IMG/VR virus record: IMGVR_UViG_2706794685_000016
Length of the DNA: 4,270 nucleotides
DNA from: a virus
Taxonomy: Duplodnaviria > Heunggongvirae > Uroviricota > Caudoviricetes
Strand: one strand, 5' to 3'
Shown piece by piece: positions 1-3,988 of the stretch. Within the stretch, counting starts at the first letter, position 1. Each line of letters starts with the position of its first letter. The notes beneath the pieces were generated by a model. It worked only from the letters and a program-made list of their open reading frames with translations, was not told where the DNA came from and did no database searches. The position numbers and the translations under genes are program-made.

Positions 1-282
1 ATGTCGTCGGTAATGTGTGATGGTCTGTTAGTGGGTAATGCCGAAATTATTCCGTTCAGTCCGCGCAGGTATCTTTATCACGCCTATCTGGCATATATGA
101 GGGCACACGGATTCGGTAAACCTGTAACACTGACGCGCTTCGGTAAAGATATGCCGGGGGCAATGGCGGAATATGGCAGGGAGTATATGAAACGGAAAAC
201 GAAGCACGGTTTGCGTTCAAATGTGACCCTGACAGAGGATTCAGAAGACTGGATGCCATCATGTGCAATAGGTCACAAATGA
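1..282 (+). CDS. Putative 3' end of a replication initiator gene (P4 alpha-like primase/helicase origin-binding region); possibly a complete 93-aa ORF instead
   Basis: Seen: frame open from nt 1 (ATG) to TGA at 280-282. Inference: it lies immediately upstream of an iteron array whose core TGTTCACC is the type I iteron bound by the C-terminal domain of phage P4 alpha. Function is assigned by position, not by a recognised motif in the protein. Confidence 0.4.
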   Translation: MSSVMCDGLLVGNAEIIPFSPRRYLYHAYLAYMRAHGFGKPVTLTRFGKDMPGAMAEYGREYMKRKTKHGLRSNVTLTEDSEDWMPSCAIGHK

Positions 283-309
283 CGATGGAAAAAATTAAAC
301 TTATGGAAT

Positions 310-534
310 AACTGTTCACCCTGCAATAAATGTCTTTTATATCAGTATATTATAGGGTGAACAGTTATTTATGAACTGTTCACCAAACTATTCACTGTTC
401 ACCTTTTTGATTCTTTATTGAGCTTTAAGGGTGAACAGTGGTGAACAGTTGGTGAATAGTTTTTGTGAAACTGTTAACCCATTAACATCATGAATAAAAA
501 GGGAAAATTGCAAAAGGTGAACAGGTGAAGGGTT
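310..534. repeat. Iteron array in an AT-rich intergenic region (origin-of-replication-like; ori/crr-type)
   Basis: Seen: forward copies of GGTGAACAGT(T) at 356-366, 430-439, 440-450, 451-461 (1 mismatch), 516-525 (1 mismatch), 524-534 (degenerate); reverse copies AACTGTTCACC at 310-320, 374-384, 394-403 and 469-479 (1 mismatch). Copies 356-366 and 374-384 form a perfect 11-bp inverted repeat with a 7-nt spacer; 430-461 is three head-to-tail copies. Flanked by A/T-rich sequence (481-560). Established: TGTTCACC is the P4 ori/crr type I iteron. Confidence 0.7.
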
Positions 535-575
535 AAAATGCAAAAATTTTATTTTATTGCTGTGAGGTAAAGCCT
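500..575 (+). promoter_or_regulatory. Probable promoter / DNA-unwinding region upstream of the 576 ORF
   Basis: Seen: A/T-rich stretch with a TTGCAA (508-513) and TAAAAT (533-538) pair at 19-bp spacing (non-ideal), and GAGG (564-567) about 8 nt before the GTG at 576. Overlaps the last iterons, so initiator binding could regulate it. Weak match to sigma-70 consensus. Confidence 0.25.
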
Positions 576-821
576 GTGACAACGAAGCACGCCAAAAAAC
601 CACAATCTCACGCCCTTGATTTGACAGAACACTGGCTGAGGGTGGCGATAAAAATCATCGACCGCAACGCCGGGGAAGGATACGCGAAAGCACATCCCGA
701 ACTGATAAGCGCATTCATGACCACGACGGCGGCAAACTTTGCCACGCTGACAGAACGGGAGATTGCCGAAGCGGAACAGGTGACAACCATCAACGTTAAA
801 ACCGGAGAGCAGACAGCATGA
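576..821 (+). CDS. Hypothetical small protein (81 aa), GTG start
   Basis: Seen: ORF with GTG start preceded by GAGG; stop TGA (819-821) overlaps the ATG (818-820) of the next gene in an ATGA arrangement, indicating translational coupling. No recognisable motif. Confidence 0.5.
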   Translation: MTTKHAKKPQSHALDLTEHWLRVAIKIIDRNAGEGYAKAHPELISAFMTTTAANFATLTEREIAEAEQVTTINVKTGEQTA

Positions 822-1201
822 CAGCACAGATAGCGGCTTACGGGCGGCTGGTGGCTGACCCGCAGTTAAAGACCACCAGCAAGGGTACGCAAATGACGAT
901 GGCGAGTATGGCGGTTCCCCTGCCGTGCAGCCAGGCAGATGACGGAACGGCGACGATATGGTTATCCGTCCTGGCGTTTGGCAGACAGGCTGACGCACTG
1001 GCAAAGCACCAGAAAGGCGAGCTGGTGAGCGTGGCGGGTAACATGCAGGTAAGCCAGTGGACAGGCCAGAACGGAGAAACGCGGCAGGGCTGGCAGGTTA
1101 TCGCAGACAGTGTAATCAGTGCCAGAACGGCGCGACCGGGCGGTAAAAAAGGCCAACAGGGGCAGGCCACTGATGCACTGAACAGGGCCAAACAACAGGC
1201 G
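818..1201 (+). CDS. SSB-like single-stranded DNA-binding protein (OB fold), 3' end lost in assembly gap
   Basis: Seen: ATG preceded by GGAG (804-807). The translation aligns by eye with E. coli SSB: IAAYGRLVADPQL versus VILVGNLGQDPEV, and TIWLSVLAFGRQADALAKHQKGELVSVAGNMQVSQWTGQNGETRQ versus [46 protein letters not shown], followed by a Gly/Gln-rich linker (RPGGKKGQQGQ). The reading frame beyond 1201 runs through Ns and is not interpretable. Confidence 0.7.
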
Positions 1202-1465
1202 NNNNNNNNNNNNNNNNNNNNNNNNNNNNNNNNNNNNNNNNNNNNNNNNNNNNNNNNNNNNNNNNNNNNNNNNNNNNNNNNNNNNNNNNNNNNNNNNNNN
1301 NNNNNNNNNNNNNNNNNNNNNNNNNNNNNNNNNNNNNNNNNNNNNNNNNNNNNNNNNNNNNNNNNNNNNNNNNNNNNNNNNNNNNNNNNNNNNNNNNNNN
1401 NNNNNNNNNNNNNNNNNNNNNNNNNNNNNNNNNNNNNNNNNNNNNNNNNNNNNNNNNNNNNNNNN
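1202..1465. other. Assembly gap (264 N)
   Basis: Seen: run of n characters; content and true length unknown. Confidence 1.
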
Positions 1466-1716: not shown

Positions 1717-1911
1717 ATGCCAGAGAACAACAGCAGAAAACCGGATAAAAGTGCAACAGTGCACATAGACGCCGGAACTATGGAGAAGCTCGAACGCTAT
1801 CAGCAGTTCATTAAAAGTCATCACCCTGGAATGCCAGTACCCACGAAAGGGCAGATTGCGAGAAGCGCGGTTGAATACTGGTACAGGGCAACGTTAGGAG
1901 CCTGGCTATGA
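1717..1911 (+). CDS. Hypothetical small protein (64 aa from the ATG at 1717)
   Basis: Seen: strong SD GGAGG (1705-1709) 7 nt upstream of the ATG at 1717; the in-frame ATGs at 1684 and 1687 lack an SD. Stop TGA (1909-1911) overlaps the protease ATG (1908-1910) in an ATGA arrangement. No cysteines, so not an Ogr/Delta-type zinc finger. Confidence 0.55.
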   Translation: MPENNSRKPDKSATVHIDAGTMEKLERYQQFIKSHHPGMPVPTKGQIARSAVEYWYRATLGAWL

Positions 1912-3053
1912 AAACATGGTTTTCCATTAAGGCTATGGCTGATGTTGTACATGTACGCATTTATGACGAGATCGGCGGGTACGGTGTAAAAGCATCGGCA
2001 CTTACTGACGAGATCAACGCGTGCGGTAATGTGCCTGAAATCCATCTTCGCATCCATTCACCTGGTGGCGACATCTTTGAAGGGCTGGCTATCTATAACG
2101 CCCTGAAAAATCATCCGGCAAAGAAAATTGTACACATTGAAGGCATGGCGGCTTCTATGGCCTCGTTTATTGCCATGTGTGGCGATCACATCGTTATGCC
2201 TGAAAACGCGATGATGATGATACATGCCCCCCGTGGTGTTACTGCCGGAGTGTCGGGCGACGTTCGCCGCTTTGCTGACCTGATGGACAAGCTGGGCGAC
2301 ACGATGGCGGAAACCTACGCCGGAAGAACGGGCAGGAGCAAACAGGAAATCACCGCCATGATGGAGGCGGAAACCTGGATGGATGGCAATGAGTGTAAGG
2401 CTAATGGCTTCGCAGATGAGGTTATACCCGCGATTACAGCAATGGCCAGAATTGAATCAAAACGAATCGGAGATTTTTCGAATATGCCGGAAAATATTAA
2501 AAGCATGATCAGCCAGAAAACTGGCAGCGGAGAACAGGAACGACTCAACGGGATACGTGAATTGTTTGGCACGTTCAATGGAAGATATAACGACCTGGCT
2601 ATAAGTTGTCTTGCTGATTCAGGCTGTAGCGTTGAGGATGCACGCGAACGCCTTTTACTCACTATGGGTAAAGAATCGACACCGACAAACAAAACCACCC
2701 CCGCAAATCTTTACTACGCGTACACGGATAACGGCAACATAACCGGCGATGCAATGCGTCAGGGGCTTAATGCGCGTCTGGGACATGAACAGGCAGAACG
2801 CGGCAACCCTTACGCCATGATGAGCCTTTTCGATATGGCACAGGCATCATTAACCCATCGCGGCATAAGCACAGGCAGCTACAGCACACGCTCGCAGATA
2901 GTAAACGCGGCATTCACCCACAGCAGCAGCGATTTTACTTATATCCTTGCTGGTGGTGCTGAAAAATCCGTGAACACAGCGGCGAAACGTTCCGCCAGTG
3001 GACGAAAAAAGGTTCATTGTCAAACTTCCATGAGGCACGTCGTGTTGGCCTGA
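1908..3053 (+). CDS. ClpP-family prohead (head maturation) serine protease with about 190-aa C-terminal scaffold/linker-like extension
   Basis: Seen: AGGAG (1896-1900) 7 nt before the ATG. The N-terminal half carries ClpP signature motifs in the right order: IHSPGGD (cf. ClpP INSPGG), GMAASMASF with the putative catalytic Ser codon at 2154-2156 (cf. GQAASMGAF), MIHAP with the putative His codon at 2223-2225 (cf. MIHQP), and WMDGNE...FADEVI (cf. the Asp-containing C-terminal region). Established: ClpP-like proteases of this kind process HK97-type proheads. Confidence 0.85.
   Translation: MKTWFSIKAMADVVHVRIYDEIGGYGVKASALTDEINACGNVPEIHLRIHSPGGDIFEGLAIYNALKNHPAKKIVHIEGMAASMASFIAMCGDHIVMPENAMMMIHAPRGVTAGVSGDVRRFADLMDKLGDTMAETYAGRTGRSKQEITAMMEAETWMDGNECKANGFADEVIPAITAMARIESKRIGDFSNMPENIKSMISQKTGSGEQERLNGIRELFGTFNGRYNDLAISCLADSGCSVEDARERLLLTMGKESTPTNKTTPANLYYAYTDNGNITGDAMRQGLNARLGHEQAERGNPYAMMSLFDMAQASLTHRGISTGSYSTRSQIVNAAFTHSSSDFTYILAGGAEKSVNTAAKRSASGRKKVHCQTSMRHVVLA
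3005..3011 (+). other. A_AAA_AAG heptamer in phase with the protease ORF (candidate -1 frameshift site or homopolymer indel hotspot)
   Basis: Seen: frame-0 codons are CGA(3003-3005) AAA(3006-3008) AAG(3009-3011), so the heptamer A AAA AAG is in the phase required for tandem slippage. The -1 frame is open from 2963 and continues for 216 codons into the capsid ORF; frame 0 stops at 3051-3053. Established: A_AAA_AAG is the E. coli dnaX slippery sequence. Confidence 0.35.
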
Positions 3054-3659
3054 ATGGCTTCTCTACATTAAACAAAGTGCCGGAAGGCGCGGAATATAAA
3101 TACATCACCACCAGTGACCGTGGCGAACCAATCGCGCTGGCAACTTACGGAAATATTTTCAGCATTACCCGACAGGCGATTATTAACGATGACCTGAATC
3201 AGTTAACAGTTATCCCACAGGCAATGGGGCGAGCAGCCGCCAGAACGGTGGGTAATCTGGTTCATCTGGTGCTGACAGGAAACACAAAGCTTTCTGACGG
3301 TATACCGCTGTTCAGCAAAAAACACGGAAATGATATTGATAACGGAGTCAGCACTACAGGGCTTGGCATTGCACGCCGTGCAATGCGCACACAGAGGGAT
3401 GAAAACGGTGAGGTGCTGAATATTGTGCCAAAATTCCTTCTTGTTCCTGCGGCTCTGGAAGACAGAGCGTTGCAAATGGTTAACTCAACCACGCCTTTCG
3501 GTGCCGATACAAACAGTGGTTCATATAACCCGTACCACAAACAACTGGATATTATTGTCGATCCCCGCCTTGATGAAGTCAGTGATAAGCAATGGTACAT
3601 GCTTTCAGCACAGGGAACGGACACAATTGAGGTGGCTTATCTTGACGGTAATGACGAGC
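3017..3659 (+). CDS. Major capsid protein domain (HK97-fold-like), 3' end lost in assembly gap; no credible independent start
   Basis: Seen: long ORF in the -1 frame relative to the protease. Its only candidate start is TTG at 3017 with a poor SD; the first in-frame ATG is about 70 codons in. It contains PKFLLVPAALEDRAL, resembling the N-P-x-D-W-A-A-L type motif of HK97-family capsid proteins. Position directly after a prohead protease supports the call. The frame after 3659 runs through Ns. Confidence 0.6.
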
Positions 3660-3933
3660 NNNNNNNNNNNNNNNNNNNNNNNNNNNNNNNNNNNNNNNNN
3701 NNNNNNNNNNNNNNNNNNNNNNNNNNNNNNNNNNNNNNNNNNNNNNNNNNNNNNNNNNNNNNNNNNNNNNNNNNNNNNNNNNNNNNNNNNNNNNNNNNNN
3801 NNNNNNNNNNNNNNNNNNNNNNNNNNNNNNNNNNNNNNNNNNNNNNNNNNNNNNNNNNNNNNNNNNNNNNNNNNNNNNNNNNNNNNNNNNNNNNNNNNNN
3901 NNNNNNNNNNNNNNNNNNNNNNNNNNNNNNNNN
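3660..3933. other. Assembly gap (274 N)
   Basis: Seen: run of n characters; content and true length unknown. Confidence 1.
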
Positions 3934-3988
3934 AGATTCTTTACAAAAAATCTGAGCTTGTTTTCTTAACCAGCGCGATGGGGGCACA

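What the first reader, a model, noticed from the sequence alone, without database searches (positions are those of the whole stretch)
310..534. Dense bidirectional iteron array with a perfect palindromic pair and a triple tandem block
About 10 copies of GGTGAACAGT(T) lie in 225 bp, in both orientations. They include a perfect 11-bp inverted pair with a 7-nt spacer (356-384) and three contiguous direct copies (430-461), followed by an A/T-rich block (481-560). This is the architecture of an initiator-binding origin, and the core equals the P4 type I iteron. The same sites overlap the likely promoter of the downstream 576/SSB operon, so initiator binding could couple replication to expression.
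Basis: partly seen in the sequence, partly recalled or inferred. Interest (0 to 1): 0.5.

Follow-up and report, generated by a model that had tools for sequence, protein, structure and literature searches.

The report
Replication origin of a phage satellite
The repeat cluster is real and is almost certainly the replication origin of an E. coli phage-parasitic island (PICI), an already described kind of origin that here uses the same initiator-binding repeat as satellite phage P4.

Summary
Eleven copies of GGTGAACAGT (six exact) lie in 311-533, in both orientations, including the 11-bp palindromic pair (356-384) and the triple tandem block (430-461).

The array starts right after the gene for a P4-alpha-like helicase initiator. 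That protein's last 93 aa (window 1-282) match the solved origin-binding domain of P4 alpha (PDB 1ka8, E=1.5e-22).

The window belongs to an ~11-kb island with the same gene order as EcCICFT073. The equivalent region of that PICI is a published, plasmid-tested origin, and the two arrays are colinear.

In relatives the layout keeps its spacing (within about 12 bp at one block, 1-2 bp elsewhere), while all copies switch core in concert: GGTGAACA, GGTAGACA, GGCGGACA, GGTGGACA, GGTGCACA or GGTAGAGA. The switch tracks the wing of the initiator's DNA-binding domain.

The 5' half aligns with P4 ori1 and the 3' half with a P4 crr unit. The array therefore looks like P4's two cis elements fused, and the island has no second cluster.

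The promoter-coupling idea has no real support. The best candidate melting site is 321-355, not 481-560.

Verdict: a new member of a known kind, of modest interest. This copy's activity was not tested.

The parts
1..282 (+). 3' end of the initiator gene (Pri-Rep, P4-alpha-like). It encodes the C-terminal winged-helix origin-binding domain. The predicted wing hairpin is about aa 63-74, nt 187-222.
   Evidence: PDB 1ka8 (P4 alpha origin-binding domain) E=1.5e-22. Pfam Pox_D5. The full-length relative is 50% identical to P4 alpha over the helicase and DNA-binding domain. The hairpin is predicted at aa 64-73, at low confidence.
311..320 (-). Iteron 1 (exact). Most relatives carry two adjacent copies here; the window has lost one 10-bp copy.
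321..355 (.). 35-bp A/T-rich spacer between inverted iterons. It is the best candidate for the melting site. It contains the conserved CAGTAnnTTA motif and an IHF-like site with one mismatch (340-352).
   Evidence: Least stable 25-mer is 330-354. Colinear with the 35-bp spacer of P4 ori1 and the 39-bp spacer of EcCICFT073. IHF-like site.
356..365 (+). Iteron 2 (exact), left arm of the perfect palindrome 356-384.
375..384 (-). Iteron 3 (exact), right arm of the palindrome.
387..396 (-). Iteron 4, degenerate (AGTGAATAGT). It overlaps iteron 5 by 3 nt.
394..403 (-). Iteron 5 (exact). It ends the ori1-like module (about 311-425).
   Evidence: Window 312-424 aligns with P4 ori1 reverse complement, z=11.8. 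Multiple alignment A2.
430..461 (+). Iterons 6-8, the triple tandem block (periods 10 and 11; the third copy is GGTGAATAGT).
   Evidence: The same triple occurs in P4 ori1.
470..479 (-). Iteron 9 (GGTTAACAGT, 1 mismatch).
480..515 (.). Conserved non-iteron segment (TTAAC..ATGAAT..A-rich), shared with the P4 crr unit. Its function is unknown.
516..533 (+). Iterons 10-11, an overlapping direct pair (GGTGAACAGG / GGTGAAGGGT). This corresponds to the GGTGAACAGTGTGAACA pair of P4 crr.
534..557 (.). Terminal A/T run (92% A+T). It is the 3' boundary of the origin and the second candidate melting site.
   Evidence: Present in each P4 crr unit. Homology among E. coli copies ends at about window 553.
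576..821 (+). First gene after the origin: an 81-aa protein of unknown function (phrog_1231). It is followed by an SSB gene that starts at 818 and is cut by masked N from 1202.

Best explanation
Window 311-557 is the replication origin (ori) of an EcCICFT073-type phage-inducible chromosomal island.

Proposed mechanism, with the status of each step:
1. After induction, the island's Pri-Rep protein binds the 8-10-bp iterons through its C-terminal winged-helix domain (window 1-282). Pri-Rep is an SF3 helicase related to P4 alpha. The wing hairpin reads the variable central bases. Binding is inferred from homology and covariation.
2. Protomers bound on inverted iterons either side of the 35-bp A/T spacer (321-355) assemble the helicase, melt the DNA and start theta-type replication with host polymerase. 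The SSB encoded just downstream may assist. This step is inferred by analogy with P4 alpha and with the tested EcCICFT073 replicon.
3. The 3' half (430-557) is the counterpart of P4's cis-required region crr. It probably acts as an adjacent enhancer or loading platform, not as a distant looping partner. This is inferred.
For: - Position: the array starts right after the initiator gene. Island gene order (int, HTH, Icd-like, DUF4222, primase, array, small ORF, SSB, capsid gene) matches EcCICFT073.
- Experiment on the homologue: the region 3' of EcCICFT073 pri-rep, with iterons flanking an A/T region, supports plasmid replication. Deleting rep abolished colony formation, and deleting ori significantly reduced it (PMC6092414). 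It has been reused as a primase-dependent conditional origin (bioRxiv 10.1101/2022.09.30.509847).
- Colinearity: the window array is colinear with that origin and with P4 ori1. Its 3' half aligns with P4 crr (z = 8-14 against shuffles).
- Initiator: the DNA-binding domain matches PDB 1ka8 at E=1.5e-22. Helicase plus DNA-binding domain are 50% identical to P4 alpha.
- Iteron identity: the core equals the annotated P4 type I repeat.
- Covariation: each related locus uses essentially one core only. The cores change in concert at homologous positions, and most positions hold to 1-2 bp (up to about 12 bp at the triple block). The change tracks the wing segment of the DNA-binding domain, while the putative recognition helix stays the same.
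- Selection: within the GGTGAACA class, iteron columns are 74% conserved against 57% for spacers, p=3e-5.
- Single site: there is only one cluster in the island.
Against: - Nothing was tested on this sequence. The tested EcCICFT073 origin uses a different core (GGTAGAYA), and its initiator is only 48% identical.
- The start site of synthesis is unknown. In P4, crr is not itself the start site.
- The initiator lacks P4 alpha's Zn-ribbon and Toprim primase domains, so how priming occurs is unclear.
- This copy may be decaying. One iteron is lost, the initiator tail is frameshifted and the capsid gene carries a 13-bp deletion.
- The covariation rests on about seven specificity classes that are not phylogenetically independent.
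Confidence: 0.85

Rival explanations
1. The array is only a crr-like, cis-acting enhancer or initiator-loading site. DNA synthesis would start elsewhere, for example at a site inside the initiator gene, as reported for P4 replicon II (ori2 plus crr).
For: The 3' half is alignable with P4 crr and sits where crr sits, just 3' of the initiator gene. One isolated exact GGTGAACA lies inside the primase gene of the relative L001, at 11724. P4 replicon II is cited in PMC6092414 (refs 42, 43). Its details come from my own memory, because the papers were not retrievable.
Against: The 5' half is colinear with P4 ori1 itself, including the 35-bp A/T spacer. Both P4 elements are therefore represented in the array. 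A single in-gene 8-mer is at chance level.
Confidence: 0.08
2. The repeats also, or mainly, act as an operator. Initiator binding to the last iterons (516-533) would control a promoter for the downstream 81-aa/SSB genes, coupling replication to expression.
For: The iteron cores (TGAACA, TAGACA, TGGACA) resemble a -35 hexamer. A weak candidate exists: -35 TGAACA at 518, an 18-nt spacer, and a TG-extended -10 AAAAAT at 542, 8/12 matches. No terminator separates the initiator gene from the array.
Against: The consensus scan finds no + strand promoter. The A/T run plus iteron pair is conserved in P4 crr, where the first unit is followed by a spacer and the second crr unit rather than a gene start. 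It is also conserved in E. coli Iso00041, where the next gene is on the opposite strand. Gram-negative PICIs are described as transcribed in one direction, rightward (PMC6092414); taken with the lack of a terminator after the initiator gene, read-through could express the downstream genes.
Confidence: 0.12
3. The array is a packaging (cos/pac) site, a recombination site, or a binding array for a repressor unrelated to replication.
For: Dense inverted and direct repeats of this kind also occur at cosB/pac sites and at operators.
Against: The repeats co-vary with the initiator's DNA-binding domain. They equal the alpha-binding iterons of P4. The homologous EcCICFT073 region was tested as an origin, and that island's cos sites were tested separately from the ori. 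No RNA family matches the window.
Confidence: 0.02

Closest known systems
EcCICFT073 ori (Gram-negative PICI origin; Fillol-Salom et al. 2018, PMC6092414)
   Same: It has the same position, immediately 3' of pri-rep, and the same island gene order. Its layout is the same: two inverted copies, an A/T spacer, one + copy, three - copies, two or three + copies, one - copy, a spacer, two + copies, then an A/T run. The initiator is homologous along its full length, including the unusual N-terminal domain.
   Different: The iteron core is GGTAGACA/GGTAGATA instead of GGTGAACA. The initiators are 48% identical and have a different wing. The window copy lacks one 5' iteron.
Satellite phage P4 ori1 and crr (alpha-dependent origin)
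   Same: The type I iteron core is identical. The initiator's helicase and winged-helix domain are homologous (1ka8). Window 312-424 is colinear with ori1, and about 430-557 with a crr unit, both in initiator-sense orientation.
   Different: P4 keeps ori1 and crr 4.7 kb apart and duplicates the 120-bp crr unit; here one copy of each is fused in about 250 bp. P4 has a terminator between alpha and crr, type II repeats, and a DnaG-type primase domain in alpha. None of these is present here. The island lacks sid, psu, delta and epsilon.
SaPI origins of Gram-positive PICIs
   Same: The logic is the same: the origin lies immediately 3' of the rep gene and has iteron sets flanking an A/T-rich region. 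This is as summarised in PMC6092414. That each island's iterons are specific to its own Rep is from my own knowledge, not from a paper read here.
   Different: No sequence comparison with a SaPI was made here; the initiator lineage and iteron sequences are expected to differ.
Iteron plasmid origins (Rep_3/pi-type, e.g. pSC101, R6K, P1)
   Same: They also use multiple initiator-binding repeats next to an A/T-rich unwinding element.
   Different: Their iterons are about 19-22 bp direct repeats bound by a non-helicase Rep, with DnaA boxes. Here the units are 8-11 bp in both orientations, the initiator is itself an SF3 helicase, and there are no DnaA boxes or GATC sites.

Membership tests
Gram-negative PICI origin (EcCICFT073 type) | Lies immediately 3' of the pri-rep (initiator) gene | tested here: met
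   The initiator ORF ends at 282 and the array spans 311-557. The same holds in L001 and EcCICFT073.
Gram-negative PICI origin (EcCICFT073 type) | [quoted passage not shown] | tested here: met
   Iteron at 311-320, spacer 321-355 (least stable 25-mer 330-354), iterons at 356-403.
Gram-negative PICI origin (EcCICFT073 type) | Colinear with the experimentally tested EcCICFT073 origin | tested here: met
   Alignment A2 and direct reading of L078 21997-22284. The core sequence differs.
Gram-negative PICI origin (EcCICFT073 type) | PICI island context: integrase, AlpA-type regulator, pri-rep, capsid-related gene, mostly unidirectional genes, about 10-11 kb | tested here: met
   Closest E. coli relative L001, 96% identical to window 1-1200. 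The window itself shows only primase end, ori, SSB and capsid.
Gram-negative PICI origin (EcCICFT073 type) | Supports replication only with its cognate Pri-Rep | not testable with these tools
   Shown only for EcCICFT073 (PMC6092414; bioRxiv 2022.09.30.509847).
P4 alpha-dependent origin (ori1 + crr) | Type I iterons TGTTCACC / GGTGAACA | tested here: met
   Seven exact 8-mers in the array. The P4 annotation and scan agree.
P4 alpha-dependent origin (ori1 + crr) | Initiator with an SF3 helicase and a C-terminal winged-helix domain homologous to alpha | tested here: met
   1ka8 E=1.5e-22. 50% identity over 457 aa.
P4 alpha-dependent origin (ori1 + crr) | Bipartite: ori1 plus a distant crr made of two 120-bp direct repeats | tested here: not met
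   There is a single cluster in the island, holding one ori1-like and one crr-like module side by side.
P4 alpha-dependent origin (ori1 + crr) | Initiator carries a Zn-ribbon/Toprim (DnaG-type) primase domain | tested here: not met
   Pfam finds these domains in P4 alpha but not in the island protein. NCBIfam finds nothing in the N-terminal 150 aa.
P4 alpha-dependent origin (ori1 + crr) | Type II repeats in ori | tested here: not met
   CAYTTAAAGY gives only chance-level single hits.
P4-like satellite (element level) | sid, psu, delta and epsilon genes | tested here: not met
   None is annotated in L001 or EcCICFT073.
Iteron plasmid origin (Rep_3 type) | Direct repeats of about 19-22 bp, DnaA boxes, non-helicase Rep | tested here: not met
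   Units are 8-11 bp in both orientations. There is no DnaA box within one mismatch. The initiator is an SF3 helicase.

The most novel reading that the evidence does not exclude
The array is a fused form of the two cis elements that P4 keeps 4.7 kb apart (ori1 and crr). The fused layout is the common state of this initiator family.

This PICI type uses the same iteron core as P4 and a similar wing. P4 alpha and the PICI Pri-Rep may therefore recognise each other's origins. That would couple two satellite families with different described helpers (P2 for P4; lambda, phi80 and a resident CFT073 prophage for EcCICFT073), through cross-activation or incompatibility. The array is present in 11% of complete E. 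coli genomes.

The wing hairpin would then be a simple, swappable specificity determinant for building orthogonal conditional replicons.
Probability: 0.3. Interest if true: 0.55.

Novelty: new member of a known kind. Interest (0 to 1): 0.25.

Why it matters
It places this window in a known class, the PICI replication origin, and shows the origin is common: 594 of 5426 complete E. coli genomes carry the array.

The comparative data add three modest points:
- A fixed-geometry array whose iteron core and initiator wing change together gives a natural series of probably orthogonal initiator/origin pairs. This is useful because the EcCICFT073 pair is already used as a conditional replicon.
- P4's odd bipartite ori1/crr looks like a split version of this single array. 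That contradicts the published remark that no other known replicon shares the PICI origin layout.
- Shared specificity with P4 predicts testable cross-talk between satellites.

Tried and rejected
- Two CFT073 regions were fetched before the right one was found (searches were wrong; one search is EcCICFT073).
- A protein search with the 93-aa domain returned only fragments.
- The full-length initiator model was poor (mean pLDDT 42). Only the N-terminal aa 16-128 were confident, and Foldseek against the PDB gave nothing below E=0.7. The N-terminal domain therefore stays unassigned; Pfam and NCBIfam found nothing there, and its only PHROGs hits are an unknown-function family (phrog_2850) and the N-terminal part of a family merely labelled 'DNA primase'.
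- The model of the window's own domain is low confidence (pLDDT about 50). It was used only for secondary-structure topology.
- No homologue of the P4 copy-number regulator Cnr (ORF106) was found among the two genes upstream of the initiator.
- The P4 ori2/replicon II papers and the 1ka8 paper were not retrievable. The P4 cosmid paper gave no origin detail.
- Negative scans: no DnaA boxes, GATC sites or convincing Fis sites, and only IHF-like sites with one mismatch. No P4 type II repeats. No Rfam family. No terminator and no consensus + strand promoter in 200-900.
- The single-strand DNA fold is strongly structured (z=-6). This follows simply from the inverted iterons and was not taken as evidence of a functional hairpin.
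- Co-occurrence of P4-like satellites with this origin type in the same genomes could not be computed with the tools available.

Full report
**Observation.** The repeat cluster is real. GGTGAACAGT with up to two mismatches occurs 14 times in the window, and 11 of those lie in 311-533. Dinucleotide shuffles give a mean of 2.8 and a maximum of 8. Six copies are exact, three have one mismatch and two have two mismatches. Six lie on the + strand and five on the - strand. The 11-bp palindrome with a 7-nt spacer at 356-384 is exact. Tandem Repeats Finder as three copies of period 10-11. The region is 65-69% A+T, against about 40-50% in the flanking genes. The two least stable 25-mers are 330-354 and 533-557.

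**Context.** ORF 1-282 is the C-terminal end of a larger protein. It matches Pfam Pox_D5 and the solved origin-binding winged-helix domain of P4 alpha (PDB 1ka8, E=1.5e-22).

Window 1-1200 is 96% identical to chromosomal islands in E. coli. In strain RM10410 (L001) the island is about 11 kb and sits between pgrR and mppA. Its genes are integrase, an HTH regulator, an Icd-like protein, DUF4222, a 605-aa 'DNA primase family protein', the array, an 81-aa ORF, SSB, a ClpP-protease/capsid fusion and small ORFs.

The 605-aa protein is 50% identical to P4 alpha over the SF3 helicase and the DNA-binding domain. It lacks alpha's Zn-ribbon and Toprim primase domains.

**Closest characterised element.** EcCICFT073 has the same gene order: DUF4222, primase, a 289-bp intergenic region, a small ORF, SSB, then capsid (L078). 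Fillol-Salom et al. 2018 state that Gram-negative PICI origins lie immediately 3' of the initiator gene and have two iteron sets flanking an A/T-rich region. They showed that EcCICFT073 rep+ori drives plasmid replication: the rep mutant gave no colonies and the ori deletion significantly reduced them (PMC6092414). The same primase/ori pair was later used as a conditional replicon.

Reading the EcCICFT073 intergenic region shows the same layout as the window, but with GGTAGACA/GGTAGATA as the repeat. The two initiators are 48% identical along their full length.

**Comparative evidence that the initiator binds the repeats.** A scan of one genome per species returned 72 related loci.
- Arrays sit in the same place, and each locus uses essentially one core only.
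  - GGTGAACA: the window, E. coli, Klebsiella, Raoultella, Pluralibacter, Kluyvera ascorbata, the induced element vB_KppS-Ant, Rahnella and P4.
  - GGTAGACA: E. ruysiae, Kluyvera georgiana, Enterobacter hormaechei.
  - GGCGGACA and GGTGGACA: Serratia.
  - GGTGCACA: Proteus.
  - GGTAGAGA: Symbiopectobacterium.
- The arrays align position by position, and the core changes in concert at every site.
- Site positions relative to the initiator's stop codon mostly agree within 1-2 bp across classes, with up to about 12 bp of play at the triple block. For example, L010 has 32-, 42-, 85+, 106-, 117-, 125-, 170+, 180+, 201-, 245+, 253+. L052 has 35-, 44-, 92+, 113-, 124-, 134-, 157+, 167+, 200-, 244+, 252+. 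The window matches once its missing 10-bp copy is allowed for.
- In the DNA-binding domain the putative recognition helix (RFGxDMPGAMAEYG) is nearly constant among four closely related classes (GGTGAACA, GGTAGACA, GGCGGACA, GGTGGACA). The segment after it (KRKTKHG-LRSNVTL in the window) changes with the core, including a 5-aa insertion in the GGTAGACA, GGCGGACA and GGTGGACA loci. P4 alpha is only about 50% identical overall, yet it keeps both the segment (KRHTKQG-IQTNLTL) and the core.
- That segment is predicted to be the beta-hairpin wing (low confidence). The winged-helix topology of 1ka8 is described in PMC2777425.
- Within the GGTGAACA class, iteron columns are more conserved than spacers: 74% against 57%, p=3e-5.

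**Relation to P4.** The P4 record annotates type I repeats (TGTTCACC) in ori (9310-9413) and in crr (4291-4590). crr lies just 3' of alpha, after a terminator.
- Window 312-424 aligns with the reverse complement of P4 ori1, which is the alpha-sense orientation. The shared layout is inverted copies, a 35-bp A/T spacer containing a common CAGTAnnTTAnAGGG, one + copy, then three - copies. The score is 45 against 18±2.3 for shuffles. The multiple alignment includes EcCICFT073.
- Window 474-529 aligns with the crr unit: TTCACCC-TTAnCA-TGAA-A-rich-AAAGGTGAACAG(T)GTGAA. An A/T run then follows in both, z=10.5.
- The island has no other cluster.
- The array therefore combines one ori1-like and one crr-like module.
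- The same fused layout follows full-length, roughly 770-820-aa initiators in Rahnella, Proteus and Symbiopectobacterium. Only close P4 relatives (L040, L041) show the crr-only unit downstream. By inference, the fused form is the common state and P4's split form is the exception.

**Promoter idea.** The consensus scan finds no + strand promoter and no terminator in 200-900. A relaxed scan gives only 8/12 candidates. The best uses the iteron TGAACA at 518 as the -35 element and a TG-extended AAAAAT at 542 as the -10 element.

The iteron pair plus A/T run is conserved in P4 crr. It is also conserved in E. coli Iso00041, where an IS903B lies upstream and a HEPN gene on the opposite strand lies downstream. 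Homology to the window there ends at about 553. The A/T run therefore belongs to the origin, and the genes after it are variable cargo. A regulatory side-effect of initiator binding cannot be excluded, but nothing supports it.

**Other checks.** No DnaA boxes or GATC sites were found, and only one-mismatch IHF-like sites, one of them at 340-352. There are no P4 type II repeats and no Rfam family. The genes upstream of the initiator show no Cnr homologue. The initiator's N-terminal domain (aa 16-128) is predicted as a confident alpha/beta fold with no match in the PDB. How priming occurs is therefore open.

**Verdict.** The main claim holds: this is an initiator-binding origin that uses the P4 iteron. 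It belongs to a described and experimentally validated class, the PICI origins, and it is widespread, with the array present in 594 of 5426 complete E. coli genomes. It is a new member of a known kind. The modest additions are the ori1+crr fusion reading, the wing/iteron covariation series and the predicted cross-specificity with P4 alpha. Activity of this particular copy is untested, and the copy shows signs of decay.

Noticed in passing
L001 10480-12297 (initiator; the window holds only its last 93 codons, 1-282): The protein annotated as 'DNA primase' lacks P4 alpha's Zn-ribbon and Toprim domains. Its N-terminal ~140 aa form a predicted alpha/beta domain (pLDDT 70-88) that matches no Pfam or NCBIfam family, only PHROG families without an assigned domain function (phrog_2850 unknown; N-terminus of phrog_864 'DNA primase'), and no PDB fold. 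The same domain is conserved in EcCICFT073 Pri. Its primase activity is unproven.
   Followed up: partly
window 2970-2980 (ORFs 1908-3053 and 3017-3955): Compared with RM10410, the window has a 13-bp deletion in the ClpP-protease/capsid fusion gene. This splits the gene into two overlapping frames, so the capsid gene of this copy is probably a pseudogene.
   Followed up: partly
window 255-312: The initiator's extreme C-terminal tail differs from relatives: ...SCAIGHK* here against ...SCASVTNDDGKN* in L001. This looks like a small indel causing an early stop at 280-282, with the ancestral stop near 297-299. The DNA-binding domain itself is intact.
   Followed up: no
window 310-311 (compare L001 12312-12329): The window lacks one 10-bp iteron at the 5' edge. 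Most E. coli copies are 303 bp and carry ACTGTTCACCACTGTTCACC, so iteron copy number varies between copies.
   Followed up: partly
L079 (E. coli Iso00041) 6000-7240: An IS903B is inserted between the primase gene and the array, at about window position 315. Downstream there is a HEPN-domain gene on the opposite strand instead of the 81-aa/SSB genes. The origin thus marks the border between the conserved replication module and variable cargo.
   Followed up: partly
window 480-496 and 340-352: Two non-iteron motifs are conserved across specificity classes and in P4: TTAAC..ATGAAT (in P4 crr, TTATCAC.CTGAAAT) and CAGTAnnTTA inside the A/T spacer. Nothing is known to bind them. The second overlaps an IHF-like site with one mismatch in the window only.
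   Followed up: partly
L002 (LR881103.1, 'Escherichia phage vB_KppS-Ant') 11689-12290: A 16.5-kb element deposited as an induced prophage carries capsid, portal and terminase genes, which looks like a capsid-forming PICI. It has the same GGTGAACA array after its primase gene. The same replication module therefore serves PICIs with different packaging modules.
   Followed up: partly
window 1202-1465 and 3660-3933: Two runs of masked N interrupt the SSB gene's 3' end and the capsid gene. Anything inside them could not be assessed.
   Followed up: no
L017 (Erwinia rhapontici) about 4.3 kb upstream and 2.1-2.2 kb downstream of the initiator stop: A locus with a 792-aa alpha-type initiator has GGTGAACA clusters far from the gene on both sides, and only two one-mismatch copies (+81, +93) just downstream. 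It may be a second example of a split, P4-style origin.
   Followed up: no
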